DNA from: Gemmatimonadota bacterium
GTDB taxonomy: Bacteria; Gemmatimonadota; Gemmatimonadetes; Palauibacterales; Palauibacteraceae
NCBI GenBank assembly: GCA_021295785.1
Contig: JAGWBR010000003.1
Span: 65,236-129,235 of the forward strand
Length of the DNA: 64,000 nt
Reading direction: 5' to 3'
Both the position numbers and the translations under genes were made by a program. Under the pieces are notes generated by a model that saw only the letters and a program-made list of their open reading frames with translations, ran no database searches and was not told the DNA's origin. The first letter of the stretch is position 1, and each line of letters begins with the position of its first letter. Shown here one piece after another: positions 33,011 through 50,932 of this stretch.

Positions 33011-34246
33011 ATGCGGATCGCTTTCCGCGCCAATCTACGCTTCGCCAGAGCTCGTTCACCCCTTCCCGGCGCGCGCCCGCCTTCAGCCAGGTCCTGGTTT
33101 CTGGGGGCGGCTGCCGCAGTCGGGCTGGCGGGTGCGTGCGCCAGCCCGGACCCCGCGGCCCGCCTGACGGCAGCCGCCGACGCCATCGGCCAGTTAGAGA
33201 GAGTCTCATACGATTTCAACTATGAGGAATCGGGGAGAGGGCAGGCCGAGTACCGGGGCTGGGTGCGGCTGGTACCGCAGGCAGCACAGGCCCTGCCTCC
33301 CCTCTTTTCGGCTCGCATTCAGCCGTCCCCTTTGTGGGACGGAGTGAGTCCACACTGGGGACCACCGGGCGAACCGGTCCTGCTTGTGTCGGGCGGGTCC
33401 GAGGAAGTCGCGGTCATGGACTACGCCACCAGCCAGATGCGGTTCGGCTCGTTGGACGGCGCCGGCCTACATCTGGCCCATTTCTCCTTGTTTGGAGTGG
33501 TATTCGAGTTCGCCGGCCTGGGTCCGTTTGCGCGCGAACTCGGCAGCGAGCTGAGTTACGCGGGAAGAGGCTCCGTCCGCGGGGTGGCCACCGACATCAT
33601 CCGCAGCGTGCAAAGCGGGGGGGGCGAGCTACTGTGGCACATCGGGGCCGACGACAACCTCCCGAGGGGATACCAGTGGACGGGGCCGGATGGTGAGACC
33701 GTCCGCCTGACGATTGAGAACCTGGACCCCGTGAGGATCGTCCAGTCCCAGGAGCTCGGCCTTGTACCGCCAGAGCGTTTCGCGGTCATTCGGGAAGACG
33801 AGCGGCTGTTCGGCGTCGGCCACCCCGCCCCTCCCCTCTCCGGTGCATCACCCGAGGAAGCCGGGAACGCAGACGGCGGCGGACCGATGATAGTGGAATT
33901 CGGTGCCAGTTGGTGCGGGCCGTGCCGGGACTTGGAAACTGCCCTGGGCGAAGCCGGCGGCGAACTCGCTTCCCTTGGCGCATCCGCGCACGGGCTCAGG
34001 GTCTGGGAACCGGCCGCGACTGCTGATGGGGAGACCCCGGCGGCAGCACCCTACCAGGTCACGCGCAGGGCCGAGGCGGCAGCCCTCGATTACCGCGTCA
34101 GCGAAATCCCGGCGGTGTTTGTGATCGACGGCGAGGGAGTGTTGCGCCTCGCGCTGAACCCGGTCTCCGGTCAGGTGGACGAAGCCGTCTCGGCGGTCTT
34201 GGGCAGCCTGCGGGCGCTGCAGGAATTGAATCAGGCAACCCCGTGA
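33011..34246 (+). CDS. Lipoprotein with C-terminal thioredoxin-like domain
   Basis: Signal/lipobox LGAAAAVGLAGACASP. C-terminal MIVEFGASWCGPCRDL (WCGPC thioredoxin active site). N-terminal about 270 aa of unknown fold. Confidence 0.6.
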   Translation: MRIAFRANLRFARARSPLPGARPPSARSWFLGAAAAVGLAGACASPDPAARLTAAADAIGQLERVSYDFNYEESGRGQAEYRGWVRLVPQAAQALPPLFSARIQPSPLWDGVSPHWGPPGEPVLLVSGGSEEVAVMDYATSQMRFGSLDGAGLHLAHFSLFGVVFEFAGLGPFARELGSELSYAGRGSVRGVATDIIRSVQSGGGELLWHIGADDNLPRGYQWTGPDGETVRLTIENLDPVRIVQSQELGLVPPERFAVIREDERLFGVGHPAPPLSGASPEEAGNADGGGPMIVEFGASWCGPCRDLETALGEAGGELASLGASAHGLRVWEPAATADGETPAAAPYQVTRRAEAAALDYRVSEIPAVFVIDGEGVLRLALNPVSGQVDEAVSAVLGSLRALQELNQATP

Positions 34247-34298
34247 GTCAACGTAAATCACCCCTCGCGAAGGCCCATCCTCGTTTGCCCGGCGGTCT

Positions 34299-35699
34299 CT
34301 AGCGGCGTCCGCCAGTCAGTCGGTCCACGGGCAGCCCGCTGGGCACGGTGTCCGGGGCCAGATCCAGGGTCAGCGCCCTGGGATCCGTCAGCGACTTGAG
34401 AAACTCAACGATGTCCCCGGCATCCCCTTCCTCGAACCGGACGGGGATAAGCAATGTGTCCAGATTCGCCAGGATCTCGTCGAAGTTGTTCAGGAGAGTC
34501 CCCCGTAGTTCCGGAGGGATCTGGCTCACGTCATACTCGCGGAGCCGAGCCTCCACGTTGTTGTAGTGCCGCACGATCGCCTCGAGAGTGGCGAACTGAC
34601 CGGCGTGCCCGTACGGGGCCGTCAGCTCGACGTTGCGCAGCGGCGGCACCTGGAACAGGCGCCTGTCCGCGGGATCCCCGGTGACCCTTTCCCTGCCCAA
34701 GTCGTCGCCCACTCCCGGCTCGTCGGAGAAACCAGGCCCGAACTGCGGAACTCCCGAGTTGTGGAAATCACCCTGCCTGTCTTGGAACGAGTCCGTCTCA
34801 TGGCAACGCATGCACCGGTGCTCGTTCATGAACCTGAGCGCGCCGCGGAGCGCCGGTGTGCTCAGTTGCGTGGTGTCGCCCGCCAAGAACCTGTCGAACG
34901 GCGTGTCGTTCATGGCGAATCCCTCGATCATGAACGCGCCAATCGCGTTGCTGGCGTGCGCGAACGTCATGTCGTCGAACGCCACACCCGGATAGGCGGC
35001 CACAAAAAGGGCGCGGTAGTCCTCAAACTCGACCAAGCGGTCCATCAGTCTTGCCCACACGGCGGTGAACGCCCCGTCCGGCAGGGCCCCAACGGGGTTG
35101 TCGGAGCCGCCCCGCATCTCCTGCCGGTTCTCGACCGGGAACAGAGCCTGGGCGGACGTCACCCCGAACTCAAACACGTCGATCATCTCCGGGGTCAGGT
35201 GCGCTCCCGCATCGGTTCTCAGTTCCCCGTCCTCCAGTTCTTCCAGCCTCCCGTCCCAGAACAGCGACCGGCGCAGGTGGAGGTTGAACAAGGTCGTGGA
35301 GTGACGCGGGCCGAACACGCCGCTGGGGTGGATCCTGTCCGCGCCGAGCCCCTGGCCGCCCTGGCCCACGGTCAGAGAGAGCGCGTCCGAGCCACCGAGC
35401 TCGGGCAGATGGCAGGTCATGCAGGAGATGTCCTTCTCCCCGCTGAGGACGCGGTCGAACGCCAACATGCGGCCAAGTTCAACAAGTTCGGGCCGGATCG
35501 GGTCGTGCGGATCAAGCGGATCAAGGTTCCGCTGGTCGGCCACTAACCGGACGCTGTCGATCAGGATTTCCCGGGAAGTCTCCACCGGATCCGGCGGGGG
35601 AGGCGGCGGGGACGGTGCCACGGGTTCTTCACCACCGCACGCCCCCAGAAAAGCGAGCAGCACGCCCGCGGCGGTCGCTTTCTCCAACTGCGGCACCAT
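34299..35699 (-). CDS. Di-haem cytochrome c peroxidase (CCP/MauG family), lipoprotein
   Basis: ATG 35699 gives MVPQLEKATAAGVLLAFLGACGG (lipobox). Two CXXCH motifs (CMTCHLPE; CMRCHETD). Conserved PLRNVELTAPYGHAGQF. Confidence 0.9.
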   Translation of the reverse strand: MVPQLEKATAAGVLLAFLGACGGEEPVAPSPPPPPPDPVETSREILIDSVRLVADQRNLDPLDPHDPIRPELVELGRMLAFDRVLSGEKDISCMTCHLPELGGSDALSLTVGQGGQGLGADRIHPSGVFGPRHSTTLFNLHLRRSLFWDGRLEELEDGELRTDAGAHLTPEMIDVFEFGVTSAQALFPVENRQEMRGGSDNPVGALPDGAFTAVWARLMDRLVEFEDYRALFVAAYPGVAFDDMTFAHASNAIGAFMIEGFAMNDTPFDRFLAGDTTQLSTPALRGALRFMNEHRCMRCHETDSFQDRQGDFHNSGVPQFGPGFSDEPGVGDDLGRERVTGDPADRRLFQVPPLRNVELTAPYGHAGQFATLEAIVRHYNNVEARLREYDVSQIPPELRGTLLNNFDEILANLDTLLIPVRFEEGDAGDIVEFLKSLTDPRALTLDLAPDTVPSGLPVDRLTGGRR

Positions 35700-35805
35700 T
35701 CGGCGGCTCACCAGGTTGGGCCCTCCAAACAGTCCATGAACACGAAACAATACCGGTATGGTCAAATCCACGGTCTCGCAGCCACCCGCCGGAACCAGGC
35801 CAAGA

Positions 35806-36285
35806 TCAGCTGTCTTCTTCAACCACCTCAATCACCACGTCCATCATGTACTCGTGGTATCGGCAGAAGAACACGTATTTCCCCGGGAGGGGCGGGCGAT
35901 ATTCCCAGGTGCGTCCGGGGCGAAGGTCCCGGCTGTCCGCGTGCTCCACCGTATTCGGGACGGCGCTGAATTCAACGCGGTGGATCTTATTCCCGTTTTG
36001 CGTCCAGGTGACCATTTGCCCGACCTTAACCGACGCGTTGGCCTCCTCGTTGTGGTCGCCTTCTTCGTCAACGAAGGCATCGTCGATGATGTCGAAATTG
36101 GCTACCGACCCGAGGGGTATTTCCACCCGTCCCGTGTCCGGCGGAGCCACAACCGGAGGCGTACGAGGTTGTTCGGGTGTCGGCGGAGCCTCGGGCTCGC
36201 TCTCGGCGCAGGCGTGAAATACCGCCGCGGCCAGGAGCGCGGCCCTGGGTCCGTAAGACGCTGCCGTCGTGAGTGATTGCTTCAT
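35806..36285 (-). CDS. Cupredoxin (type-1 blue copper protein; pseudoazurin/plastocyanin-like), lipoprotein
   Basis: Signal AALLAAAVFHAC. Copper ligands in classic spacing ...H(R)VEF...FFCRYHEYMM (Cys-X2-His-X2-Met). Immediately upstream of cytochrome c peroxidase. Confidence 0.75.
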   Translation of the reverse strand: MKQSLTTAASYGPRAALLAAAVFHACAESEPEAPPTPEQPRTPPVVAPPDTGRVEIPLGSVANFDIIDDAFVDEEGDHNEEANASVKVGQMVTWTQNGNKIHRVEFSAVPNTVEHADSRDLRPGRTWEYRPPLPGKYVFFCRYHEYMMDVVIEVVEEDS

Positions 36286-36344
36286 CACATACGAAATAAA
36301 TGAGTTCGGGGCAGTGACGCAAATGCGGGTTGTCTACCCCTCGG

Positions 36345-37660
36345 TCAGCGTCCGGGGTCTGGGCGCGAGCGCTCCCGCGGGCCTTGATCGGGGTACTCGC
36401 GGTCAGCTGCTCCCGCGCGGACCCCTTCCCCGCTGATGTGGTCCCAGAGCGTGCTAACTCCGGCCTGGTCCGAATACGTCACCAGCGACAGCCCTCCGAT
36501 CGTCCGCGGATAGCTGGGCGGGACCGGCCACGCGAACAGTTCGGTGTCGCCGATGTGGGCGCGCATTGTCGCGTCCTTGATTGAGAACCGCACTTCGGTC
36601 AGTTCGCCCGGAGCGCTCTGGATCAGGTCGGAGTGACCCGACGCCGCGGGGATGCGCTGGAGTGTGATTTCAAAGAGGCTGACCGTGACGTAAAAAGTCA
36701 TGTAGTTGTGTGGTTCGGTTACCCCGTCCTCTTCCCAGCCCGATCCGATGCCAAACGCGTACCCGCTGGTGAGCAGGGCACCGGGGGCGACTGCGATCGC
36801 AGGGAACACACCTTCTTCTTCGGCCCGGCCCATGACCGCCGTGATTTCCCAGTCCGTCCAACTCCCCACCGAGGTTGAAGCAGCCAGAGCCCACGATTCG
36901 GCGTCGGTCTTGGTCAGTTGCATCACCCCGTCTTCGACCGTGCCTTCGGCATCGATGAAAGTCCATCCGTCGGTGCTGGAGAAGTCGCGGTCGATGATCA
37001 CCGACGCAAATACCGACACCTCAGCCGAGAGCGAGGCCATTTCGCCATGAGGGTCCGTGGCGGTGACCGTGACCACGGCGGACCCCGGCCCGGCACCTCG
37101 CACGGTGATTTTTCCGTCAGTCACCTCCGCTTCTACAAACTCCGTGTCGGACTCGGCCTCAAACGTCAGCGGGTCCCGGTCCGGGTCGGAAAAGAGCGCC
37201 CCGGCGTCTGTCTCGAAAGCCGTGCCGGCTTCGAGAGACGTGTCGGGAATCGCACCCACGACCGTGGGACCTCGGTTTGGCTGAAAGATGCTGACCGCCG
37301 CCCCTACCGAGGCGGAAAGTCCGTCCGGATCGGAGGCAGTAATGGTCAGTGGCACGACCACCGTCCCGATTACTTCCACGCCGTCGGCCACCCGCACGAC
37401 CACGCTGGTCCCGGCCACGCTGAGGGCGACCACGTCCTCGCCGCCGGTCGCCGTGATTGTGAGCGCGTCTCCGTCAGGGTCGCTGAAAATGCCGCTCACG
37501 TCAATGGTCAGGGTCTCTCCGGGCAACATCGTCTGAGCGGGAACCTCTCCCAGAACTTCCGGTTGTCGGTTAGGGGTGGGAGGCGGCGGTTCAGGGCCTC
37601 CGCCGCCTTCGCCGCAGGCCACTCCCAGAACCGTGGCGACTGCCCCAACCAACGCCCGGC
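36345..37660 (-). CDS. Ig-like repeat (putative-Ig/He_PIG-like) lipoprotein with conserved approx. 200-aa C-terminal beta-rich domain; paralogue A
   Basis: Lipobox LVGAVATVLGVAC. Three Ig-like repeats carrying FSDPDGD(A/P)LT(I/F) motifs. C-terminal domain shared with the neighbour (GIGSGWEEDGVTEPHNYMTFY...ELFAWP...STLWDHISGEGV). Start approximate; the six-frame ORF extends to 37826. Confidence 0.55.
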
Positions 37661-37702
37661 TCCTGGTGCAGGGGCCGGCGGCGGGGCGTCCGGGGGAAGG
37701 CA

Positions 37703-38995
37703 CTACTGCCGCCGTATTCCCCTGATCACGATGTGATCCCAAATGGAGCTGTTGCCCGCTGTCTCGGTCAGGGTCGCGAGAATTACCGAACCCAGGGTGG
37801 CCCCGTACTCCGCGCCCAGCGTCCACGCGAACAGCTCCTCCTGCTCCACCACGGCCCGCATCACGCCGTCCTTCACCGAAAGGTGAACCACGGTCAACTC
37901 GTCCGCGCCGCTGTCTATCTTGTCCGAGTCGCCCGACGCCTGCGGGATGTAGGTCAGTTCATCTTCGAAATCGCCCTCGGTGTGGAACATCACGTAATTT
38001 CTCGGTTCCTCCGTCGAAGGATCCACCCAACCGGAACCGATGCTGAACATGTAGCCGCCGCCGCCGGTCGCGGTCCCGGTCGGGATCAGCAGAGCCGGGA
38101 AGGTTCTGTCGGTCTGGCCGCGGCCGAATACTACCGACATTTCCCACTCCTCCCAGATGCCCTCAACCGAGGTGACCGCAAGCCCCGGGTTGTTGGCAGT
38201 CTGCGAGGATAGGGTCATCACGCCCGCCTGCGAAACAACCGTGGCGTCAACCGCCGACCAGGCATTGGCGTCGCTGAAGTCGTCTTCAAAAACCGTCTCC
38301 AGGGTGACCGTCACGCTGGCCGACACCGACGCCGCGAGGTTCTCGGGATCGGTCGCGCCAATCGTGATCAGAGCAGTTCCTTGCTTCACGCCGGTCAGGG
38401 TTGCTTCGCCGTCCGCAAGCTCCGCGGTGGCCACGGACTCGTCGTTCGACTGAATCGTGTAGGTGAGCTGGTCGCCGTCCGGGTCGGAGAACAGGGCAGC
38501 CACGTCGACTGTGACCGACCGGCCGGCAAATACGTCCAGTGAGGAAACCGACCCCACAACCTCGGGAGCGCGGTTGGGCTGGATGATGCTCACGTCGACG
38601 GTAGTCGTCGCGGAAAGGCCGTCGGGATCGGTTGCCGTCACCGTCAGGCCCACGTCCACCGTCCCGACGATGTTGACCCCGTCAGCAACCTGAACCGCGA
38701 CGGTCAGGTCCACGACCGTCAAATCGACGGTCCCCTCCCCGCCCGCCGCGGTCAGGGTGAGGGTGTCTTCGTTGGTGTCGGCAAACACGTCGGAAAAATC
38801 GATGACCAAAGTCTCTTCGGGGGTCATGGACTGCTCAGAAACAGACCCCACCACCTGCGGGGCAACGTTGGGACCCGGCGGCGGGGGTTGGGTGGTGGTG
38901 TCATCGCAGGACGTGGCCCAGGCCGCAGCCAGCAGCGTTAACACCGCCGACGTCGAAAAAAATCCGGCCGACGCCAGGGGCTGTGACTGCCTCAT
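37703..38995 (-). CDS. Ig-like repeat (putative-Ig/He_PIG-like) lipoprotein with conserved C-terminal domain; paralogue B
   Basis: Signal/lipobox LTLLAAAWATSC. Repeats with FSDPDGDQLTY and VFADTNEDTLT. C-terminal SIGSGWVDPSTEEPRNYVMFH...ELFAWT...SSIWDHIVIRG is homologous to paralogue A. Confidence 0.6.
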   Translation of the reverse strand: MRQSQPLASAGFFSTSAVLTLLAAAWATSCDDTTTQPPPPGPNVAPQVVGSVSEQSMTPEETLVIDFSDVFADTNEDTLTLTAAGGEGTVDLTVVDLTVAVQVADGVNIVGTVDVGLTVTATDPDGLSATTTVDVSIIQPNRAPEVVGSVSSLDVFAGRSVTVDVAALFSDPDGDQLTYTIQSNDESVATAELADGEATLTGVKQGTALITIGATDPENLAASVSASVTVTLETVFEDDFSDANAWSAVDATVVSQAGVMTLSSQTANNPGLAVTSVEGIWEEWEMSVVFGRGQTDRTFPALLIPTGTATGGGGYMFSIGSGWVDPSTEEPRNYVMFHTEGDFEDELTYIPQASGDSDKIDSGADELTVVHLSVKDGVMRAVVEQEELFAWTLGAEYGATLGSVILATLTETAGNSSIWDHIVIRGIRRQ

Positions 38996-39292: not shown

Positions 39293-41110
39293 TCAGCCGC
39301 CGGCCGCGATCCCCCGCAGCGTGTCCGCCAGCAGGCGGAGGCGGCGCGCATCGCCGGCACCGCGGGCGTTTTCGGCACTGCGGGCCGTGGATTCGAGTTG
39401 GTCGGCCAGAGACACCATGGCATCCCCGTCGACTGATCCCGTTTCAGCCATCTCGAGCAATTCTTCGGCCGCGGACGCCGCCTCGGGCCCGATTCCGCCG
39501 CTGCGCTGCATCTGCTTCAGGTAAGAGCGGGCGACCGGCACCGTGGCCGGCCACTCGACCAAAGGCTGGGTCTGGGCGTTGAATTCGTTCATCCGCACCG
39601 ACCGGGCCGCCTCGATCTCCGCCTCGGAAAGGTGTTCCCCCACGGCCAGCGCCAGCACGTCGATGCCGCGGGCCATCTCGGCTCCGTAGATCGCGCCATT
39701 GTGCCAGTAGGCCGACCAGTATCCGCCCGATAGCATCTCCACCGGATCCAGGGGACCGCGGTCGAAGTATCCGATTTCGTGAGCGTTGGCCGGGTCCGTG
39801 AAATCAAACACCGAGATTCCGCCCTGGTACCAGGCCTGGACCATGATGTCGCGGCCGGGCACCGGAATCAGGGAACCGTTGTGGGCCACGCAGTTCTCCT
39901 GCTCGGTCTGCGGCACCGGCAGCTTGTAGTAGCCGGCCAGCTCCATCTTGCGGTCGCGCACGCGGAAAATGGCGTTTGCCCCCCAGGTGTCGGGGTCGGT
40001 GGACCTGCACCGGGGCGCCCCTCCACCACCCCACTCGTCGGTGAAGACAATCGCGGTGCCATCGTTGTTGAAGGTGGCCGAGTGCCAGTAGGCGAAATTC
40101 GGGTCCGCAACCTGGTCGATCCGGACCGGGTTGGCCGGGTCGCTGATGTCGAGCAGGATCCCGTTACCGGAGCACGCCCCCGCCGCCAGCCCCAGGTCGG
40201 GCCGCACGGTGATGTCGTGACACTGGTTGGTTACCCGCGACCGCTGGGTCATGGGACCGTGGTCGCCCCCTGGCCACAAGCCGGCGATTTCGCCCGTCTC
40301 GGGGTCGGCGAAAATGCGCGGCGCGCTGACAATCCGCGCATCCTCGGGCATTGCCAGGGGCACCTCAATCACTTCGATCCGGAACAGAGCGGTGCCCGGC
40401 TCCTCGTCCGGGGTCCCCGCCACGCAACCGTCGAGTTCCTCGGCCGGGCGCACCCGCCCGGTTCCCGACACGTAAATCCAAACGCGGTCGTCCGCGTCAG
40501 GGTGCGTCACCAACGTGTGGGTGTGGGAGCCGCGGCAGGTCTGCACCGTCTTGACCTGGCGCGGATTGGAGACGTCGCTCAGGTCGAAGATGCGAATACC
40601 CATGAGCCGTTCGCCGCTCACCGGCGGCTCAACCCCTTCGGTTCCACAGTCTTGCCGGGCGCTGGACTGCTGCACCGACGTGAACAGCAAGTGGCCGTGG
40701 ACCGACACGTCGCCCTGGCCGCCGGGGCACACCACGCTGACGGTCAACTCGGGCTCGGCCGGATCTGAAACGTCGTAGATCTGGAAGCCCCAGTAGCTTC
40801 CCTGAATCATGTAATCGCCCAGGAAGGCGATGTCTGAGTTCGTGGGGCCGCGTCCGTCCGCTTCTTCGGTCAGAAACGCGTCGGGCTTGGGCATGCTGAT
40901 GAGCAGCGACAGCCCGTCGATTGCCTCGCCCGCGTCGAACACGCCGGCCTCCAGGCCGATGCGCGGATCGTCGGGATCCCACTGCCAGCTGGTTTCGGGG
41001 ATCTCAACCGGCGGGGGACGCTGTTGGGCTGCAGCATCCGAAGCGGCCACGGCCAGGAGTCCGGCGGCTGCCGCAAGGGTCAGGGGCTTCATCGCTGGTG
41101 TCAACTTCAT
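39293..41110 (-). CDS. Secreted LVIVD-repeat (beta-propeller) protein
   Basis: Signal peptide MKLTPAMKPLTLAAAAGLLAVAASDAAAQ. Repeated L.I.DISDP..P-type motifs (FQIYDVSDPAEPE, IRIFDLSDVSNPR, GILLDISDPANP, ISVFDFTDPANAHEIG). C-terminal helical tail. Confidence 0.55.
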   Translation of the reverse strand: MKLTPAMKPLTLAAAAGLLAVAASDAAAQQRPPPVEIPETSWQWDPDDPRIGLEAGVFDAGEAIDGLSLLISMPKPDAFLTEEADGRGPTNSDIAFLGDYMIQGSYWGFQIYDVSDPAEPELTVSVVCPGGQGDVSVHGHLLFTSVQQSSARQDCGTEGVEPPVSGERLMGIRIFDLSDVSNPRQVKTVQTCRGSHTHTLVTHPDADDRVWIYVSGTGRVRPAEELDGCVAGTPDEEPGTALFRIEVIEVPLAMPEDARIVSAPRIFADPETGEIAGLWPGGDHGPMTQRSRVTNQCHDITVRPDLGLAAGACSGNGILLDISDPANPVRIDQVADPNFAYWHSATFNNDGTAIVFTDEWGGGGAPRCRSTDPDTWGANAIFRVRDRKMELAGYYKLPVPQTEQENCVAHNGSLIPVPGRDIMVQAWYQGGISVFDFTDPANAHEIGYFDRGPLDPVEMLSGGYWSAYWHNGAIYGAEMARGIDVLALAVGEHLSEAEIEAARSVRMNEFNAQTQPLVEWPATVPVARSYLKQMQRSGGIGPEAASAAEELLEMAETGSVDGDAMVSLADQLESTARSAENARGAGDARRLRLLADTLRGIAAGG

Positions 41111-41188
41111 CCTGCAGTCTCCTTTGAGAGTCGCTTCTGGAAAATCACCGTTCAGGTGTTAGCCGGACGGTTGCCATGCGGCCGAAAG

Positions 41189-41986
41189 TCAAAAAATCCA
41201 AACCAGGAGGAACTGGATCGTATTCTCGTCCTCGTCGGTACCGAGTTTGTTAAGCCACAGCTGGTACTCGAACCCGGCGTGCAGGGTGTTGGGCGAACCC
41301 GCGAGCGCTTCTCCCAGATCCCAGCGGAGCTGCGGTTGCGCCAGGACCCACGAGTTCAACTCGCCGCCAAGTTCGTCGCCAACCCCGCTCACATACTCGG
41401 CGTGCCCGGTGAACTGGAACGTCTGGCCCGCGAGGCCGAAAATCGACAGCCAGCTCACGTCCCATCCCCAGCCGTCGCCGGTTTTGGGGACGCCGCCCGA
41501 ATCCACACCGCCGCTGTCGTCCCGGTAGGCCGTGAAATCGGTATTCACGAAAATGAACCCCGGCAGGTCCCACGAGAGCCGGATTCCGGGCAGGTACTTC
41601 CGGACGCGAGAGACGATCCCGATGTTCACACCCGCAATGACCTGGATGTCCCTCACTGGCCCCAGACCCGCCCTTCGCCCGGCCAGGCTACTGATGCTGA
41701 GGGTCGGATACCACTCGCCGTAAATGTCGCGGTCGTTGAATCCGTCGGCGCCCCGGTCGTCGGTGTGGTCCAGAAACAGGAAGGTTTCGCCCAGCGCCCA
41801 GGTGCCGGCGTGTTGGATCGTGGAGACCGCCGTGGAGCGGCTCTCCCCGGTGAAGGGGTTGAGGAGGCCACCGAAGGCGAACTGGGCCTCAAGCTGGGCG
41901 GTTGCGGGGGCCGACCCCACGAGCGCCGCGGCGAACACCGCGGCGACACCCGCTCCGACTCGACTGGTTATCGCCTTATTTGTCAC
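41189..41986 (-). CDS. Outer-membrane beta-barrel protein (porin-like; possibly Tsx/nucleoside-channel-like)
   Basis: Signal peptide VGAGVAAVFAAALVGSAPATAQ. Alternating aromatic and aliphatic strands. C-terminal ...TIQFLLVWIF (terminal Phe). 4-nt overlap with the upstream DUF305 gene. Confidence 0.5.
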   Translation of the reverse strand: MTNKAITSRVGAGVAAVFAAALVGSAPATAQLEAQFAFGGLLNPFTGESRSTAVSTIQHAGTWALGETFLFLDHTDDRGADGFNDRDIYGEWYPTLSISSLAGRRAGLGPVRDIQVIAGVNIGIVSRVRKYLPGIRLSWDLPGFIFVNTDFTAYRDDSGGVDSGGVPKTGDGWGWDVSWLSIFGLAGQTFQFTGHAEYVSGVGDELGGELNSWVLAQPQLRWDLGEALAGSPNTLHAGFEYQLWLNKLGTDEDENTIQFLLVWIF

Positions 41987-42771
41987 CGCGGCGCGCCATC
42001 CGGGCCGGCACCCGGATCCGGGTCGTCCCGCGCCGCGCCGGCGGCGATTTCGCGCAGCAGCAGCGCCATGCGGTCGATCTCCATGCTCTGGTCCGCGTCC
42101 ACGTCCGACGCGAACCGGAAGAGCTCGGTCTCCTGTCCGGCCCCCGGGCTCGCGAACAGCGTGTCCAACATGATCAGCGCCCCCTCGTGGTGCCGGATCA
42201 TGTACCGCAGGAACGCCATGTCGAACTCGGCCCCCGACAGGGAGGCCAGCTGCTCCATCTCTTCGGGCGACAGCATGCCGGGCATGGCCGGATGGTGGGC
42301 AGCCATGTGACCGTCCGCCATGTGGTCGTCTTCCCCGTGGTCCGTGTGGCCCTCTGTCATGTGCTCCGCGTGCATCTCATGCCCCTCGGGAGCCTCGTAG
42401 AGCGGCTCGCCCCGGCGCTCCAGCCAGCGCGACATCAGCGCGATCTCGTCCCTTTGAGAAATCGCGATCCGCTGGCCCAGCAGCCCGATCATGCGGTTTT
42501 GGCTCCGCCCCTCAATCAGAGCCGACATTTCGAGTGCCTGCTGGTGGTGCGGGATCATTCCCTGCATGAACCGAACGTCCGCATCCGTGTATTCCGGTCT
42601 GGGAAGCGCGGCCGCCTCTTCGGCGGTGAGTTCGCGACCTGCCTCGCCGGGGGGCCCCGGTTGAATGGTCCGCGCCTCCGAATCGTCCGCTCCGGAATCC
42701 CCGGCCGGGGCGCAGGCCCCCAGCACCACCAGCACGCCCAGCACTCCCAACGTCATCCGGCGGCTCGTCAA
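41983..42771 (-). CDS. DUF305-domain lipoprotein (duplicated DUF305 four-helix module, metal/copper-stress associated family)
   Basis: Lipobox LGVLVVLGACAP. Two DUF305 repeats (DVRFMQGMIPHHQQALEMS...; DMAFLRYMIRHHEGALIML). His/Glu-rich linker HEMHAEHMTEGHTDHGEDDHMADGHMAAHH. Confidence 0.75.
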   Translation of the reverse strand: MTSRRMTLGVLGVLVVLGACAPAGDSGADDSEARTIQPGPPGEAGRELTAEEAAALPRPEYTDADVRFMQGMIPHHQQALEMSALIEGRSQNRMIGLLGQRIAISQRDEIALMSRWLERRGEPLYEAPEGHEMHAEHMTEGHTDHGEDDHMADGHMAAHHPAMPGMLSPEEMEQLASLSGAEFDMAFLRYMIRHHEGALIMLDTLFASPGAGQETELFRFASDVDADQSMEIDRMALLLREIAAGAARDDPDPGAGPDGAPR

Positions 42772-46007: not shown

Positions 46008-48407
46008 ATGTTTGCCGGACTTCGCGATCTTCGGCGCCGCGTGCGTGATACCACGGGGTTATTCGCCGAGCTGCACCGCCAGGGCGGGGCCATGGCCGAT
46101 TACCGCATCCTCGCCAAACGGTTCAATGTGGTTTTCGACCCGGAAATAATGGAAGAGGCACTGCTCCGGAAGCACGCCTGTTTGGGCAAGGGCAAGCAGC
46201 AACAGCGCACGCTCGACAACCTCTGCATCGTCACCGCCGACGGCGATGATCACAAGTGGCGCCGCAAACTGTTGCAGCCTTCCTTCACGCCGAATGCGCT
46301 GCGCGGCTACGCGGTGGCGATGGTTGAGGAGGCCGTTCGGCAGCGCGACTCGGTTCGTGACGGGCAGGAGCTCGACATCGATCACCTCAGCCACGAACTG
46401 TCCCTTTCCATCACGGCCCGGACGTTCTTCGGGGACGACCTGCACGTTGAGCCTGCGATCATGAAGGAAGCGCTGGCAGGTTACCGGTGGCGGGCCGTCT
46501 TGGGGCTGCTTCCCCTGGGGCGTGTGGTTAAGGCCCTGCCCCTGCCCCGCACCATCGCCAGCGAGAGGGCGATCAAGCGGCTGGACGACCGTGTTTACGA
46601 GGCCATCCGCAAAGCCCGGGCCAGCGCGCAGGAGCGCACTGATCTGATTGCCCACCTTGTGGCCGCCTGGGATGAGGGGCACCCTGCGGGGACATTTCCG
46701 GAAAGCGCGCTCAAAGACGAGGCTTTCGCGATCTTGGTGGCGGCTCACGAGAACACTGCGGTAACGCTGACTTGGTGCTTCTATCATCTGAGCCGTAACC
46801 CCGGGGCCCGCGAGCGCCTCGAAGCCGAGTTGGAAGAGGTACTTGGCCACCGTCTGCCGGACTTCGACGACGTTGAACGCCTGGTGTACACGAAGGCGGT
46901 AATGGACGAGACCATGCGACTGACCCCGACCGCAACGTATTTGGGTCGTACTGCGCTAGAGGATATTGAGTTGGGCGGTCGGCAAATCCCCAGACACTCT
47001 GTGACGCAGTTTTCGATCCGCACTCCGATGCGGGATGCGAAGTACTTCCCCCAACCGGAACGCTTCCGGCCCGAGCGCTGGCTCTCGTCCTCCGCCGACC
47101 TTCCGCGTCTGGCCTACGCGCCGTTCGGTGCCGGCAACCGGTTCTGCAGCGGGTTCAGGTTTGCCACCATCCAGATGGTACTGGCACTGGCGATCATTGC
47201 CCGGCGCTGGCGGTTTGAGCTGGTCTCCAAGGAAGATCCGGCAGTCGTTGATTTCATCATCTACAAATGCAAGGATGGTCTGCCGGTTGTGGCCCGCGAG
47301 CGGACAGGCAAGGCAGAAATTCCCGTTGGTGGCCCGCGAGCGAAACTTCAAACGAGGGGCCAGAAGGGCGGTCGCGTGACCGACATTCCGCCGGTTTTTG
47401 TCTTCAGCACCGGTCGGTGCGGCTCAACCATGGTCTCGGAGATGCTGAACCAGCACCCGGGCGTGCTCAGCATGTCCGAGTTCTTTGCGCAGCTCGGGGT
47501 GGCGGCTTTCACCCGGAAGAAAATCAGCGGCGACGAGATGTGGCGGATGTACAGCGAGCACACGCCCCGAATGCGGATCGTGACGTACGAGGGCCTGACC
47601 GAGGTGCTCTACCCGTTCACAGATCCCGTTGCCCGCTTCAACGCGGAAAACCTCCCGCCGATTCTGGCCGTGACGCTTCCTCACCTGACTGACAAGTACG
47701 AAGAACTGTTCGACGAGCTGGGTCCGGCCGTGCGCGCGATGTCCGACGCCACACCCGCCGACCATATCAGGGCGCTCTGCCAGTGGCTGTGCCAGCGACG
47801 GGGCTCAAGGGTGTGGGTGGAGCGTCATGGCGGCTCACTGATCCTTGCTTCGCGACTGCTGCGCTACTTCCCCGAGGCAAGGATTGTGCATATGTACCGG
47901 GACGGCCGTGAGACGGCGTTGTCGATGGCGAAACACCCTCCGTTCAAGCTGGCGCTGGCTCGGGCCAGGCGGGCCAGGCGTATTGGCCTTGACGCGTACC
48001 GTTTGCTCGAACGGTTCGAGCGGCGGGACCGGCTAACCCAGGCGATTCAGAAGGCCCAGTGGCGGATGACCGACCTGGACGCCTTCATGGCCGAGGAAGC
48101 GACCCTGCCCGAGGCGGCGGAACTCTGGAGCAAGATGATCGAAACCGGGCACCGGGTCTTCGGCCATTTCCCCCCCGACCGGCTGCTGAACCTGCGGTTC
48201 GAAGACATGCAACAGAATCCGGCTGAAGAGGCGCGTCGCCTCATCCGGTTCATTTCGCCGGAACTCGACGACGACGCTTGGGTAGCCGAGGTGGCGAAGA
48301 TCCCGCGCCAGACAGAATCGAAATTTGCGCAGCTGGACTCGGCCCAGCAGGCCGCGATCACGGCCGCGTGCCGCCCCGGGCTCGAGCGGCTGGGGTATTC
48401 GTCCTAG
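46008..48407 (+). CDS. Cytochrome P450 :: PAPS-dependent sulfotransferase fusion protein (799 aa)
   Basis: N-terminal approx. 430 aa has P450 signatures: I-helix VAAHENTAVTLTW, ExxR DETMRLTP, haem-binding loop FGAGNRFCSGFRFA (FxxGxRxCxG). C-terminal approx. 340 aa (from about 47388) has the sulfotransferase 5'-PSB P-loop PPVFVFSTGRCGSTMV and 3'-PB YRDGRETALSM (Sulfotransfer_3-like). Single uninterrupted frame; ATG at 46008. Confidence 0.85.
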   Translation: MFAGLRDLRRRVRDTTGLFAELHRQGGAMADYRILAKRFNVVFDPEIMEEALLRKHACLGKGKQQQRTLDNLCIVTADGDDHKWRRKLLQPSFTPNALRGYAVAMVEEAVRQRDSVRDGQELDIDHLSHELSLSITARTFFGDDLHVEPAIMKEALAGYRWRAVLGLLPLGRVVKALPLPRTIASERAIKRLDDRVYEAIRKARASAQERTDLIAHLVAAWDEGHPAGTFPESALKDEAFAILVAAHENTAVTLTWCFYHLSRNPGARERLEAELEEVLGHRLPDFDDVERLVYTKAVMDETMRLTPTATYLGRTALEDIELGGRQIPRHSVTQFSIRTPMRDAKYFPQPERFRPERWLSSSADLPRLAYAPFGAGNRFCSGFRFATIQMVLALAIIARRWRFELVSKEDPAVVDFIIYKCKDGLPVVARERTGKAEIPVGGPRAKLQTRGQKGGRVTDIPPVFVFSTGRCGSTMVSEMLNQHPGVLSMSEFFAQLGVAAFTRKKISGDEMWRMYSEHTPRMRIVTYEGLTEVLYPFTDPVARFNAENLPPILAVTLPHLTDKYEELFDELGPAVRAMSDATPADHIRALCQWLCQRRGSRVWVERHGGSLILASRLLRYFPEARIVHMYRDGRETALSMAKHPPFKLALARARRARRIGLDAYRLLERFERRDRLTQAIQKAQWRMTDLDAFMAEEATLPEAAELWSKMIETGHRVFGHFPPDRLLNLRFEDMQQNPAEEARRLIRFISPELDDDAWVAEVAKIPRQTESKFAQLDSAQQAAITAACRPGLERLGYSS

Positions 48408-48632
48408 CGCGCTATCGCGGGAATACTCACCGGTGGATGTCCCTGGCGACGCGAAAACCCATTGTGGAGGCGCTATGAGCGAGCCCCTGTCAGTTTGTCG
48501 TCCCGAATCTCCTGCTCGCTCAGCGGCTCGCAAGCGCAGCCAGTGTCCTCACCACCACTTTCACGAAATTCATGCTGCCCGTAACGCCCCACGCTAGAGC
48601 GCTAGTTGAGTTTGCGCAATTCATTGTCTAGA

Positions 48633-49727
48633 ATGCCGCGCCTACGACGCCAAACTCCGAGGTGCGTTTTGCCCAACATCGATACGCCCCCCGTGTTTGT
48701 GGTCAGCACCGGGCGGTGCGGTTCTACGATGGTCTCCAACATGGCCCGGCTGCACCCCCGGATTCTTAGCGTGTCCGAGTTCCTGGCGTGCCTGGCCGAC
48801 AAGGCGCTTGTTGGATCCCATCTTGACGGCGAGGGGTTGTACGAGCGCTTCGCCAATCTGCGCCCCGTTGGGAAGGCCCTGCTCCGCAACAACCTGATCG
48901 TCAGCGAATACCTCTACCCCGTTGGGCAGCCCGGGTCCCGGTTCGGACCCCGGGACGTGCCGGCAATCATGGGAGCTACGCTACCCCACCTGTCGGACGA
49001 CCCGGAAGCCCTCTGGGACGAGCTTGTCCCCGTGATCCGGGCGCGTGGCCGGTACACCTTGCAGGCCCAGTACAGGTTCTTTTTTGAATGGCTGGCCGTC
49101 CGTTTCGGCAAGGATGTGTGGATTGAACGGTCCGGGGCTTCGATTCTCAGCGTCCCGACCCTGGCCAGGCTCTTCCCCGACGCCCGTTTCGTGCATGTCT
49201 ACCGCGACGGCCGCGACACGGCCATCTCCATGCGGGGCCACTACGTGTTCCGCATGTACCTGGGCATGGCGATGCGTGGCAGGCGCGTCGGCATGGATTC
49301 TTTCAGCCCGCGCAACTGGCCGGGGACCAGTCGTTGGGTGCCCTGGTTCACTCCTCTGGTGTTTCGGAGCTTTGACGCCAAAGCCGACAATTTCCGCGAC
49401 AATCCCGCCGCGCTGCACGAGTTCGGGTGGTTGTGGAGCAGTATGATCGAACGGGGTACCAGATACTTGGACGCGCTCCCGAAGGACCGCGTCCTCAACA
49501 TGCGCTTTGAGACTGTACTAGAATCCCCCAAAGATGAAATGCGGCGGTTTGCCGAATTCGTGGGCCCAGGATTCGTGGACGAAGACTGGCTTGAACGGAT
49601 CACCTTGCTTCCCCGCAAGAAGACACCCAGCTGGATGAAGTTGACTTCCGACGAGCATGCCCGCCTGGCCGCAGCATGCACACCTGGACAGCGGATTCTG
49701 GAATACGCCCAAGACGAGCAGTCGTGA
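48633..49727 (+). CDS. Sulfotransferase (Sulfotransfer_3-like), paralogue of the C-terminal domain of the upstream fusion
   Basis: MPRLRRQTPRCVLPNIDTPPVFVVSTGRCGSTMVSNM (5'-PSB) and ARFVHVYRDGRDTAISM (3'-PB). Collinear similarity to residues about 460-799 of the fusion through to the C-terminus (VLNMRFETVLESPKDEMRRF vs LLNLRFEDMQQNPAEEARRL). The ORF track starts at TTG 48606; ATG 48633 is preferred. Confidence 0.8.
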   Translation: MPRLRRQTPRCVLPNIDTPPVFVVSTGRCGSTMVSNMARLHPRILSVSEFLACLADKALVGSHLDGEGLYERFANLRPVGKALLRNNLIVSEYLYPVGQPGSRFGPRDVPAIMGATLPHLSDDPEALWDELVPVIRARGRYTLQAQYRFFFEWLAVRFGKDVWIERSGASILSVPTLARLFPDARFVHVYRDGRDTAISMRGHYVFRMYLGMAMRGRRVGMDSFSPRNWPGTSRWVPWFTPLVFRSFDAKADNFRDNPAALHEFGWLWSSMIERGTRYLDALPKDRVLNMRFETVLESPKDEMRRFAEFVGPGFVDEDWLERITLLPRKKTPSWMKLTSDEHARLAAACTPGQRILEYAQDEQS

Positions 49728-50932
49728 TCACTACCGAGACCCGCGAGTTGGCTCAGTATCCCGAGACGGGACCCGCATGTTACCGCGAGCGTTTCGACCG
49801 GACTGTTGCGAAGGTGGGGCCGGCACTGGCCAGAGAATACGTCATCCAGGCCCAGGTTGGCGACCCGCCGGCCGATGTCGCGGTGCAGGAGCTGCAGCCG
49901 CGCGGGGTGACCGAGATCAACCGGCTGATCCGGGCCGGAATGGACCGCGACAAGGAGACGCTGAAGGAAGCGCCGCGATCACTGATCGACCTCTTTGAAG
50001 AGGTCAACGAACCGCCCGACTGGTGGGATCCCAAGGTGGCACAGGCCGGGATAAGGGCGTTCCATGCTCATTCCGACCTGTTTATTCCGGCCCTCTTCGT
50101 GTCCACGGTCCAGAACGCCTCCACGCTGATCGCGAAGTCGTTCCATGCCACCGGGCGCGTCAATTCACAGTTCGGGCCCAGGCGAATTCGCCAAAACACG
50201 CGCCACTTTATCGAAATCATGATGCCGGGCGGCCTGGACCGCGAGGGAGAAGGCTGGCGCCTGTCGGTGCGTATTCGTCTGGTGCACGCCCAGATTCGGC
50301 GCTTGATCCTGGATTACGGCGAGTGGGACGAAGCGACTTTCGGGGCCCCGATCCACGCCGCTCATTTGGGGGTCGCGGCGGCCAATTTTTCGGCCGGAAT
50401 GCTGCGCCATGCGACCGCGCTGGGTGCATCCCTCAGTGCGGAAGCCCGCGAGGGGTTCATGCATGCCTGGCGATACGCGTCATTGCTGACTGGTATCCCT
50501 GAAAGACTCCTTTTCGAAGGGAACGAAGAGAAGACGCGAGAGCTGTGGCGGACCGCCCGGGCGATTGAACCTCCGCCGGGCGAAGAGTCACTCGTCATCG
50601 CCACGGCCCTGTTCGACGCTCTGCCGAGGATTGCGGGCAAGCGGGAGGGGAAGGAATTCGACCAGGTGCGCACCCACGCCGCCCGCGTAACCCGGGCGCT
50701 AATTGGCCGGAAAACTGCAGACCGCCTGGAGTTGGCCCGGGGCATGCCGGGGGCGATGGCGGCGATGCGAACGCGGCGCAAACTCACCGGGCAACTGCAT
50801 AAGGTTGCGCCGACGGTCGCCGCGGCATGGCGCGCATCGGCCTTTTCCTTCCTGTTGGATGCTGCGCTGCTCGATGACCTGAAGTACACGCTGCCCGACA
50901 AGCTCAAGGCCACCGAGGCTACCCCCTGGTGA
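49724..50932 (+). CDS. MpaB/DUF2236-family (latex-clearing-protein-like) putative oxygenase
   Basis: GTG at 49724 overlaps the sulfotransferase TGA (GTGA). Conserved DUF2236 blocks: PDWWDPKVAQAGIRAFHAHSDL, RRIRQNTRHFIEIMMPGG, WRLSVRIRLVHAQIRR. About 400 aa. Confidence 0.65.
   Translation: MITTETRELAQYPETGPACYRERFDRTVAKVGPALAREYVIQAQVGDPPADVAVQELQPRGVTEINRLIRAGMDRDKETLKEAPRSLIDLFEEVNEPPDWWDPKVAQAGIRAFHAHSDLFIPALFVSTVQNASTLIAKSFHATGRVNSQFGPRRIRQNTRHFIEIMMPGGLDREGEGWRLSVRIRLVHAQIRRLILDYGEWDEATFGAPIHAAHLGVAAANFSAGMLRHATALGASLSAEAREGFMHAWRYASLLTGIPERLLFEGNEEKTRELWRTARAIEPPPGEESLVIATALFDALPRIAGKREGKEFDQVRTHAARVTRALIGRKTADRLELARGMPGAMAAMRTRRKLTGQLHKVAPTVAAAWRASAFSFLLDAALLDDLKYTLPDKLKATEATPW

What the first reader, a model, noticed from the sequence alone, without database searches (positions are those of the whole stretch)
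36345..38995. Tandem paralogous lipoproteins: He_PIG-like Ig repeats plus a shared uncharacterised C-terminal domain
Two adjacent minus-strand genes each encode a lipobox signal, several Ig-like repeats marked by FSDPDGD-LT(Y/F) motifs (dystroglycan/cadherin-like putative-Ig fold), and an approx. 200-aa C-terminal domain conserved between them: GIGSGW(E/V)...EP(H/R)NY(M/V)(T/M)F...ELFAW(P/T)...S(T/S)(L/I)WDHI. This domain is not recognisable as a named family. They are encoded beside the cytochrome c peroxidase/cupredoxin pair. Possibly surface adhesins or enzymes with a novel catalytic or lectin-like domain.
Basis: partly seen in the sequence, partly recalled or inferred. Interest (0 to 1): 0.55.

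Follow-up and report, generated by a model that had tools for sequence, protein, structure and literature searches.

The report
Tandem lipoproteins with lectin-fold head
Two neighbouring genes of a sponge-associated Gemmatimonadota bacterium encode lipid-anchored proteins with two cadherin-like Ig domains and a C-terminal domain that matches no named sequence family but is confidently predicted to have the very common concanavalin-A-like lectin fold, so this is an unannotated member of a familiar kind of surface binding protein.

Summary
Two minus-strand genes, G1 (37703..38995) and G2 (36345..37703, stop/start overlap TAGTG), are paralogues: 45% identity over 387 aa, E 2e-104. Each has a lipobox signal, two Big_9/cadherin-like Ig repeats (not "several"), and a shared ~200-aa C-terminal domain.

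That domain has no Pfam, NCBIfam or PDB sequence match. This stayed true when all 47 aligned family members were scanned and when a 47-sequence profile was searched.

An exhaustive HMMER scan of 1.84 billion representatives found 62 proteins at E≤1e-3. Sixty are relatives and two are G1 and G2 themselves. The genomic copies lie almost entirely in Longimicrobiales / Ca. Palauibacter MAGs from sponge, coral and other (mostly unlabelled) sources. More than half carry a lipobox, and the listed members carry Ig repeats.

AlphaFold2 with that alignment gave pLDDT 93.9 and pTM 0.90. Foldseek places the model in the concanavalin-A-like lectin/glucanase fold (YesU, ERGIC-53/VIP36/Emp46p, legume lectins, GH16; TM 0.6-0.68, ~10% identity).

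No GH16 catalytic motif and no T9SS C-terminal domain were found.

The link to the cupredoxin/di-haem peroxidase pair is incidental. Orthologous pairs elsewhere lack these lipoproteins, and a 99%-identical contig lacks the pair.

Most likely function: a lipid-anchored, non-catalytic binding (lectin-like) protein. Modest interest.

The parts
37703..38995 (-). G1: 430-aa lipoprotein. Signal peptide with lipobox (Cys30), proline-rich linker, two Big_9/cadherin-like Ig repeats (~residues 43-137 and 138-231), and a C-terminal ConA-like β-sandwich (~residues 232-430).
   Evidence: ORF. Pfam Big_9 and Cadherin_4. Internal repeat. C-domain model with pLDDT 93.9. ConA-like fold matches. Identical to NCBI MCE2422098.1, 'hypothetical protein'.
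36345..37703 (-). G2: paralogue of G1, about 452 aa if it starts at the GTG at 37703 that overlaps G1's stop (TAGTG). Same architecture as G1, plus a ~22-aa charged C-terminal tail that is absent from G1.
   Evidence: ORF and sequence. 45% identity to G1. Big_9 at 31.6 bits. C-domain HMM hit at E 4.7e-53. The start codon is an inference; the JGI gene call used a TTG 17 codons downstream (P0001).
37703..38305 (-). C-terminal domain of G1, approximately residues 231-430. This is the segment that was modelled.
   Evidence: Alignment A2. AlphaFold2 model mcbd52b465be3. Foldseek against PDB.
36345..37010 (-). C-terminal domain of G2 plus its unconserved tail.
   Evidence: Alignment A1. HMM hit covering profile positions 5-206.
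35806..36288 (-). Neighbour, not part of the family: a small blue-copper (cupredoxin) protein with a C-x2-H-x2-M ligand loop.
   Evidence: Weak Pfam Copper-bind/Cupredoxin_1 and NCBIfam amicyanin/plastocyanin hits. Weak PDB cupredoxin hits. Orthologues with 61-66% identity sit next to the di-haem gene in L043 and L044.
34299..35831 (-). Neighbour, not part of the family: a di-haem cytochrome c peroxidase/MauG-family enzyme with two CxxCH motifs.
   Evidence: Pfam CCP_MauG at E 1.5e-32. The closest solved relatives are bacterial cytochrome c551 peroxidases, E 2.8e-30. More than 2700 homologues were found; every source name among the 120 listed is from Gemmatimonadota.

Best explanation
G1 and G2 are a tandem-duplicated, translationally coupled pair of lipid-anchored cell-envelope proteins. 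An N-terminal acylated cysteine tethers each protein to a membrane. Two cadherin-like/Big_9 Ig domains, carrying DPDGD-type (probably Ca2+-binding) motifs, form a short rigid stalk. The C-terminal ~200-residue domain is a concanavalin-A-like β-sandwich that most likely acts as a non-catalytic ligand-binding head. The ligand is probably a glycan or glycoprotein.

The pair belongs to a small, previously unnamed sequence family found almost only in marine and sponge- or coral-associated Longimicrobiales/Palauibacterales (Gemmatimonadota). In this family the same head is combined with variable numbers of Ig repeats and, in some members, with LRR modules. The genes are often tandemly duplicated. 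This pattern is typical of surface adhesin or ligand-capture repertoires.

Shown here: paralogy, lipoboxes, Ig repeats, family distribution, and predicted fold. Inferred: surface exposure, a binding rather than catalytic role, and a carbohydrate ligand.
For: - Paralogy and architecture.
- The family is real and rare. A profile of the two C-domains found 62 proteins at E≤1e-3 among 1.84 billion representatives. Twelve scored ≤1e-10, and all but about six of the hits cover most of the ~200-residue domain.
- The 13 homologues printed nearly all pair the domain with Ig repeats, either after a lipobox or as N-terminally truncated fragments. A lipobox occurs in 34 of the 61 library proteins that start with M, one of which is G1 itself and many of which are fragments.
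- Fold: AlphaFold2 on the 47-sequence alignment gave pLDDT 93.9 and pTM 0.90, an all-β sandwich.
- Foldseek against PDB gave 268 hits at E≤1e-3. The best are YesU 1oq1 (E 2.8e-7), the L-type lectins ERGIC-53, Emp46p/47p and VIP36 (TMq up to 0.68), legume lectins, the YwfG and SraP surface lectin modules, calreticulin and GH16 enzymes.
- No conserved GH16 E.D..E motif: 2 of 47 members. The conserved positions are mostly core F/W/G/L residues plus a few polar ones (D11, D12, R65, N106, S130, E139, D193).
- Distribution: 36 loci in GTDB species representatives. Most are labelled Longimicrobiales, Ca. Palauibacter or Gemmatimonadota, including sponge (SB06xx, RHO1) and coral (Plut) MAGs.
- The window itself is 99-99.5% identical to contigs LXNJ01000325.1 and JGI 3300003254 'Pfc106'.
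- 18 of 39 loci carry two tandem C-domain genes.
- Recurrent neighbours are further Ig-repeat proteins with leishmanolysin-like or LRR heads. In L003 a SusC-like TonB-dependent receptor lies directly upstream on the same strand.
Against: - No ligand, localisation or expression data exist.
- I could not obtain model coordinates or residue-level structural alignments, so I could not tell whether the conserved polar residues line the concave sugar-binding face.
- The ConA-like fold also houses enzymes (GH16, 3-keto-disaccharide hydrolase-type, sialidase-associated modules), and several acidic residues are conserved, so catalysis is not excluded.
- G1 has Asp at position +2 after the lipid-modified Cys. 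In E. coli this signals inner-membrane retention. Sorting rules in Gemmatimonadota are unknown, so the proteins could face the periplasm rather than the cell surface.
- G1 and G2 are a divergent branch of the family, only 20-29% identical to the other members. They have lost some family-consensus residues (R62, W120; W194 replaced by H).
Confidence: 0.6

Rival explanations
1. The C-terminal domain is an enzyme: a glycoside hydrolase, transglycosylase or lyase built on the ConA-like scaffold. The Ig repeats would then position it at the cell surface to process polysaccharides.
For: GH16 enzymes (8va4, 5ocq, 3d6e, 4bow, 6t2r) and 'putative glycosyl hydrolase' DUF1080-type structures (3u1x, 4jqt) are among the Foldseek hits. 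Acidic residues D11, D12, E139 and D193 are 81-98% conserved. Some family loci sit near a polysaccharide deacetylase or a TonB-dependent receptor.
Against: No member matches any Pfam glycoside-hydrolase or ConA-clan model, even at E≤1. The GH16 E.D..E motif appears in only 2 of 47 members. The conserved acids sit in the N- and C-terminal edge strands (FRDDF, LFDW), which is typical of structural elements in this fold. Lectins, not enzymes, give the best TM-scores.
Confidence: 0.15
2. G1 and G2 work together with the downstream cupredoxin and the MauG-family di-haem enzyme. They could be protein substrates that receive a haem-dependent oxidative modification (as MauG modifies pre-MADH and MbnH modifies MbnP), or they could be part of a periplasmic redox or peroxide-handling complex.
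For: All four genes are on the same strand and tightly packed: G1/G2 overlap, a 56-nt gap to the cupredoxin, and a 26-nt overlap of the cupredoxin with the di-haem gene. NCBIfam places the di-haem protein nearest to MauG-like and MbnH-like models, below their cutoffs. In L027, a different Longimicrobiales genome, another Ig-C-domain lipoprotein gene is directly followed by a di-haem enzyme 50% identical to this one. The family has invariant Trp residues (W19, W57).
Against: Orthologous cupredoxin/di-haem pairs (61-66% and 61-62% identity) in L043 and L044, and di-haem orthologues in L045-L047, have no C-domain gene within 6 kb. Only 1 of the 38 other family loci has a di-haem neighbour. Contig LXNJ01000325.1, 99% identical to the window, keeps G1 and G2 intact but lacks window 34383..36270, which holds the cupredoxin and most of the di-haem gene. 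By sequence, the closest solved relatives of the di-haem protein are ordinary bacterial cytochrome c peroxidases. For those enzymes a cupredoxin is the classical electron donor (established knowledge), which explains that pair without involving G1/G2.
Confidence: 0.05
3. G1 and G2 are accessory surface lipoproteins of an outer-membrane uptake or metal-handling module. This would be either an SGBP-like partner of a TonB-dependent transporter, or part of the upstream DUF305 / outer-membrane β-barrel / LVIVD (choice-of-anchor-B) cluster.
For: In the window, the amidohydrolase, DUF305, a 265-aa putative outer-membrane protein, LVIVD, G1 and G2 are all co-directional with 4-nt overlaps or short gaps. 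An Ig-C-domain gene followed by DUF305 and LVIVD (56% identical) recurs in Ca. Palauibacter denitrificans and ramosifaciens (L034, L035). In L003 a SusC-like TonB-dependent receptor, an Ig-M8 protein and an Ig-C-domain protein are contiguous on one strand.
Against: A 297-nt gap separates LVIVD from G1. Most family loci have neither DUF305/LVIVD nor an adjacent TonB-dependent receptor. L034 and L035 are closely related genomes, so the recurrence may be inherited synteny. I noted no candidate TonB-dependent receptor among the ORFs within ~10 kb of G1/G2, but I did not run a specific search for one.
Confidence: 0.15

Closest known systems
L-type (legume-like) lectin domains: ERGIC-53/LMAN1, VIP36, Emp46p/Emp47p, pea and peanut lectins; also the L-type lectin modules of the bacterial surface proteins YwfG (7yl4) and SraP (4m01)
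   Same: Same predicted fold: a ~200-residue two-sheet jelly-roll with TMq 0.60-0.68 and Foldseek probability 1.00. In YwfG and SraP the lectin module is likewise displayed on a surface protein.
   Different: Only ~7-14% sequence identity. There is no Pfam Lectin_legB or Lectin_leg-like hit for any of the 47 members. The metal- and sugar-binding residues could not be mapped. The anchoring is by lipoprotein rather than LPXTG or a transmembrane segment.
YesU / DUF1961 (PDB 1oq1), a 'galectin-like fold' protein of unknown function from Bacillus subtilis
   Same: Best Foldseek E-value (2.8e-7), TM 0.63-0.65, similar size.
   Different: 10-11% identity and no HMM match. YesU is a single-domain protein without a lipid anchor or Ig repeats, and its own function is unknown.
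GH16 glycoside hydrolases and DUF1080/3-keto-disaccharide-hydrolase-type ConA-like domains (3u1x, 4jqt)
   Same: Same superfamily fold. The N-terminal 'F-x-D-D-F...W' strand and the C-terminal 'F-D-x-V' strand resemble the edge strands common in these families (resemblance judged from memory, not tested).
   Different: No conserved E.D..E catalytic motif, no HMM match, and lower TM-scores (0.50-0.64).
Bacterial multi-Ig surface proteins with Big_9 / cadherin-like (CADG, He_PIG clan) repeats; cadherin-domain proteins enriched in sponge symbionts (PMC8163846)
   Same: The stalk repeats reach the Big_9 gathering score and carry the DPDGD motif. The source organism is sponge-associated.
   Different: There are only two repeats here. 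The defining feature is the unnamed C-terminal head, which the cited surveys did not describe.

Membership tests
Concanavalin-A-like lectin/glucanase superfamily (fold level) | A ~200-residue β-sandwich (jelly-roll) of two antiparallel sheets that superposes on known members | tested here: met
   AlphaFold2 model with pLDDT 93.9 and pTM 0.90, with 14 β-strands. 268 PDB matches at E≤1e-3; the 50 listed all have this fold, with TMq up to 0.68.
Any named Pfam/NCBIfam family of the concanavalin clan (Lectin_legB, Lectin_leg-like, Laminin_G_3, 3keto-disac_hyd/DUF1080, DUF1961, Glyco_hydro_16 and others) | A match to the family HMM at or near its gathering threshold | tested here: not met
   No such hit for G1 or G2 at E≤0.1, nor for any of the 47 family members at E≤1. 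A profile search against PDB sequences found nothing. HMM-HMM comparison (HHpred) could not be run.
GH16 glycoside hydrolases | Catalytic E-[ILV]-D-[IVAF]-[VILMF]-E motif on a β-strand of the concave sheet | tested here: not met
   A regex for E.D..E matched only 2 of 47 members, and not at a conserved column.
L-type lectins | Conserved Asp/Asn/Gly/aromatic sugar-binding residues and a Ca2+/Mn2+ site in the loops of the concave face | not testable with these tools
   No model coordinates or residue-level structural alignment were available. Near-invariant G93, N106, S130 and D193 exist, but their spatial positions are unknown.
Bacterial lipoproteins (signal peptidase II substrates) | N-terminal signal peptide ending in a lipobox [LVI..][ASTVI..][GAS]-C (PROSITE PS51257-type pattern) | tested here: met
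   G1 has AWATS-C30 and G2 has VLGVA-C. 34 of the 61 library proteins starting with M also match, G1 among them. Processing itself was not tested.
Big_9 / bacterial cadherin-like Ig domains (Pfam E-set clan) | A Pfam Big_9 (PF17963) match at or above its gathering score, and repeats of ~90-95 aa | tested here: met
   G1 scores 23.7 bits and G2 31.6 bits against a cutoff of 23.6. Two repeats per protein.
   He_PIG is not listed for G1 or G2 at E≤0.1. A homologue in L027 just reaches it, 24.5 bits against a cutoff of 24. The family belongs to the same clan.
T9SS cargo (C-terminal sorting domain) | A Por_Secre_tail / TIGR04183-type C-terminal domain of ~80 aa | tested here: not met
   No Pfam or NCBIfam hit. 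The C-terminus is the last strand of the modelled sandwich.
MauG/MbnH substrate-partner systems | Conserved co-occurrence of the partner or substrate gene with the di-haem enzyme gene | tested here: not met
   Four other orthologous di-haem loci lack a C-domain gene. Only L027 shares the adjacency. A 99%-identical contig lacks the di-haem gene.

The most novel reading that the evidence does not exclude
G1 and G2, and the L027 homologue, could be dedicated protein partners or substrates of the adjacent MauG-family di-haem enzyme and amicyanin-like cupredoxin. A conserved tryptophan of the ConA-like head would then be oxidatively modified into a protein-derived cofactor or metal site, by analogy with MauG/pre-MADH or MbnH/MbnP. 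A milder alternative, also not excluded, is that the family is a lineage-specific lectin used by Longimicrobiales/Palauibacterales symbionts to recognise sponge or coral glycans. I put that alternative at about 0.2 probability.
Probability: 0.04. Interest if true: 0.7.

Novelty: new member of a known kind. Interest (0 to 1): 0.3.

Why it matters
The work gives a fold and a plausible role to a set of 'hypothetical proteins' from Longimicrobiales/Palauibacterales. This group is abundant in sponges, corals and marine sediments and has few or no cultured members. It also defines an unnamed ConA-like domain family that could be added to domain databases: 60 relatives at E≤1e-3 among 1.84 billion representative proteins. 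If the head binds host glycans, these proteins would be candidate attachment factors in sponge symbiosis. In itself, an Ig stalk carrying a lectin-fold head on a lipoprotein is a familiar bacterial design.

Tried and rejected
- Single-sequence searches found nothing. The word-indexed search of 5.8 billion proteins with the G1 C-domain returned no hit. The same search with the 47-sequence profile returned only 2 proteins because of the candidate cap.
- Single-sequence AlphaFold2 of full-length G1 failed (pLDDT 34.6). Only the alignment-based run was usable.
With the two-paralogue alignment A1 it found no close relative in the GTDB species representatives. In the metagenome collection A1 found only LXNJ01000325.1, a 99%-identical contig.
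- An exact look-up of G1 in the assembly index found nothing, although the sequence is in the protein collection.
- The Rfam scan of the window found no RNA families. The promoter and terminator scans gave nothing above chance, so operon boundaries remain inferred from spacing alone.
- Rejected: a T9SS C-terminal domain; a GH16 active site; He_PIG as the best label for the repeats; and obligatory functional coupling to the cupredoxin/peroxidase pair.
Full report
**1. What is in the sequence**

The region 36345..38995 holds two minus-strand ORFs.

- G1 (37703..38995, 430 aa) starts with ATG.
- The mechanical ORF for G2 extends to 37826. The in-frame GTG at 37703..37701 shares its first base with G1's TAG stop (TAGTG). 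Starting there gives a 452-aa product with a proper signal peptide (MPSPGRPAAGPCTRSRALVGAVATVLGVA-C). I take that as the start, which is an inference; a JGI gene call used a TTG 17 codons further in.
- G1 and G2 are 45% identical over 387 residues, E 2e-104.
- Both have a PROSITE-type lipobox (G1 ..AAAWATS-C30; G2 ..VLGVA-C), followed by a Pro-rich linker.
- Each has two ~93-residue Ig repeats, not 'several'. G1 repeat 1 and repeat 2 are 31% identical, E 3e-10.
- The repeats reach the gathering score of Pfam Big_9 (23.7 and 31.6 bits against 23.6) and approach Cadherin_4. He_PIG is not hit.
- The window holds no other copy of either module.

**2. The C-terminal domain at sequence level**

- Residues ~231-430 of G1 and the matching part of G2 are 40% identical.
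- They match nothing in Pfam or NCBIfam, or in PDB sequences.
- A word-indexed search of 5.8 billion proteins found no relatives.
- An exhaustive HMMER search with the two-paralogue profile against 1.84 billion cluster representatives found 62 proteins at E≤1e-3 (12 at ≤1e-10). Two of them are G1 and G2 themselves. All but about six of the hits cover most of the ~200-residue domain.
- Most of the 13 homologues printed have the same plan: a lipobox, then one to eight or more Ig repeats with F-x-DPDGD-x-LTY motifs, then this domain. Some have no Ig repeat (P0006), and some carry LRR or other modules (P0011, P0008).
- A lipobox is present in 34 of the 61 library proteins that start with M. One of these is G1, and many of the rest are fragments.
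- I aligned 47 full-coverage domains as alignment A2. None of the 47 hits any Pfam family of the concanavalin clan, even at E≤1. The profile finds no PDB sequence.
Also conserved are an N-terminal F-R-D-D-F...W19 block and W57-x7-G-R.

**3. Fold**

- AlphaFold2 on G1 alone failed (pLDDT 35).
- With alignment A2 it gave a confident all-β model: pLDDT 93.9, pTM 0.90, 14 strands.
- Foldseek against the PDB returned 268 matches at E≤1e-3. The 50 best that were listed all have the concanavalin-A-like lectin/glucanase fold. They include:
  - YesU/DUF1961 1oq1, the best E-value at 2.8e-7
  - the L-type lectins ERGIC-53, VIP36 and Emp46p/47p, with TMq up to 0.68
  - legume lectins
  - the lectin modules of the bacterial surface proteins YwfG and SraP
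  - calreticulin
  - GH16 enzymes
  - DUF1080-type 'putative glycosyl hydrolases'
- Sequence identities are 7-14% and TM-scores are 0.5-0.68. The fold assignment is therefore firm, but no particular family is close.
The sequence family itself is unnamed, and NCBI annotates both proteins as 'hypothetical protein' (MCE2422098.1 and MCE2422097.1).

**4. Catalytic or not**

- The GH16 E.D..E motif is absent, appearing in 2 of 47 members and not in register.
- The conserved positions are mainly hydrophobic or glycine core positions.
- The conserved acids lie in the first and last strands (FRDDF, LFDW).
- The highest TM-scores go to lectins, although two enzyme entries score almost as high.
- I therefore favour a non-catalytic binding head. 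I could not map residues onto the model, so this remains an inference.

**5. Who has it**

- Pattern scans of one genome per GTDB species found 36 loci. Most are labelled Longimicrobiales, Ca. Palauibacter or Gemmatimonadota. They include sponge MAGs (SB06xx, RHO1) and a coral MAG (Plut).
- A few contigs are binned as Gammaproteobacteria or Vicinamibacteria but carry genes 76-79% identical to the query consensus, in the same range as the Longimicrobiales copies. These are probably mis-binned.
- The window is 99.5% identical to a JGI contig 'Pfc106' from metagenome 3300003254 and 99% identical to LXNJ01000325.1.
- Palauibacterales (PAUC43f) are reported as most abundant in sponges and marine sediments (PMC10469786).

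**6. Genomic context**

*Within the window.* The following genes are all on the minus strand with overlaps or short gaps, apart from a 297-nt gap before G1:

- amidohydrolase
- DUF305
- a 265-aa putative outer-membrane protein
- LVIVD/choice-of-anchor-B protein
- G1
- G2
- cupredoxin
- di-haem CCP/MauG-family enzyme

*Across the 39 family loci.*

- 18 carry two tandem C-domain genes.
- Recurrent neighbours are further Ig-repeat proteins with leishmanolysin-like or LRR heads.
- In one lineage a SusC-like TonB-dependent receptor lies a few kb away. In L003 it is directly upstream on the same strand.
- This looks like a modular repertoire of surface proteins built from a shared stalk and variable heads.

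*The cupredoxin/peroxidase link.*

- One other family locus (L027) has a di-haem enzyme, 50% identical to the window's, directly downstream.
- Orthologous cupredoxin + di-haem pairs in two relatives (one named Ca. Palauibacter sp.; L043 and L044, 61-66% identity) have no C-domain gene within 6 kb. The same is true of the di-haem orthologues in L045-L047. In L044 the pair is flanked by the same divergent AhpC/Trx-like gene as in the window.
- The 99%-identical contig LXNJ01000325.1 keeps G1 and G2 but lacks window 34383..36270, which holds the cupredoxin and most of the di-haem gene. A 47-nt inverted filler sits at the junction. This may be a true deletion or an assembly artefact.
- By sequence, the closest solved relatives of the di-haem protein are ordinary bacterial cytochrome c peroxidases. 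Small cupredoxins are the classical electron donors for those enzymes (established knowledge).
- I conclude that the cupredoxin-peroxidase pair is a self-contained module and that G1/G2 sit next to it by accident of gene order. A functional link is not excluded, but I rate it at about 5%.

*The DUF305/LVIVD link.* An Ig-C-domain gene followed by DUF305 and LVIVD recurs in two closely related Ca. Palauibacter species (L034, L035). This may be inherited synteny.

**7. Verdict**

The domain is unnamed and lectin-like, but it is not a new fold. There is no sign of a T9SS domain or a catalytic centre, and the redox neighbours are probably irrelevant.
- The best explanation is a tandem pair of lipid-anchored proteins with an Ig stalk and a ConA-like binding head. 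They belong to a small Longimicrobiales/Palauibacterales-restricted family and plausibly bind glycans or act in adhesion.
- This is a new member of a known kind, and the interest is modest.

Noticed in passing
window 46008..50932 (+): A 799-aa fusion of a cytochrome P450 (residues 19-411) with a sulfotransferase (residues 462-755). It is followed by a second sulfotransferase (48606..49727) and an MpaB/Lcp-type oxygenase (49676..50932). This may be a small-molecule tailoring cluster.
   Followed up: no
window 34383..36270 versus L042 (LXNJ01000325.1) 10030..10076: A contig 99% identical to the window lacks ~1.9 kb that holds the cupredoxin and most of the di-haem peroxidase gene. In its place is a 47-nt segment equal to window 35230..35276 in inverted orientation. 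This is either population-level deletion or an assembly artefact.
   Followed up: partly
window 39293..42771 (-); L034 and L035 9359..12367: The DUF305 and LVIVD/choice-of-anchor-B genes (with a 265-aa putative outer-membrane β-barrel between them in the window) sit next to an Ig-C-domain gene both here and in Ca. Palauibacter denitrificans and ramosifaciens. The LVIVD proteins are 56% identical.
   Followed up: partly
window 33011..36288; L043 and L044 5272..8677: A cupredoxin plus a di-haem CCP/MauG-family enzyme forms a conserved module in Palauibacter-type genomes. In L044 and in the window a divergently transcribed ~400-aa AhpC/Trx-like protein accompanies it. The cupredoxin has an amicyanin-like C-x2-H-x2-M loop.
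   Followed up: partly
L008, L017, L018, L019, L037, L038: Contigs binned as 'Gammaproteobacteria' or 'Vicinamibacteria' MAGs carry C-domain genes. Four of them (L008, L017-L019) are 76-79% identical to the query consensus, in the same range as the Longimicrobiales copies. This suggests mis-binning or recent transfer.
   Followed up: no
L024 3617..7309, L003 5530..7902: The neighbours of family members are large Ig-repeat proteins ending in a leishmanolysin-like (Peptidase_M8) domain; the L024 one also has LRR arrays. The same stalk therefore carries different heads.
   Followed up: partly
window 37701..37705: The G1 stop and the putative G2 start overlap as TAGTG, which suggests translational coupling of the two paralogues.
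   Followed up: yes
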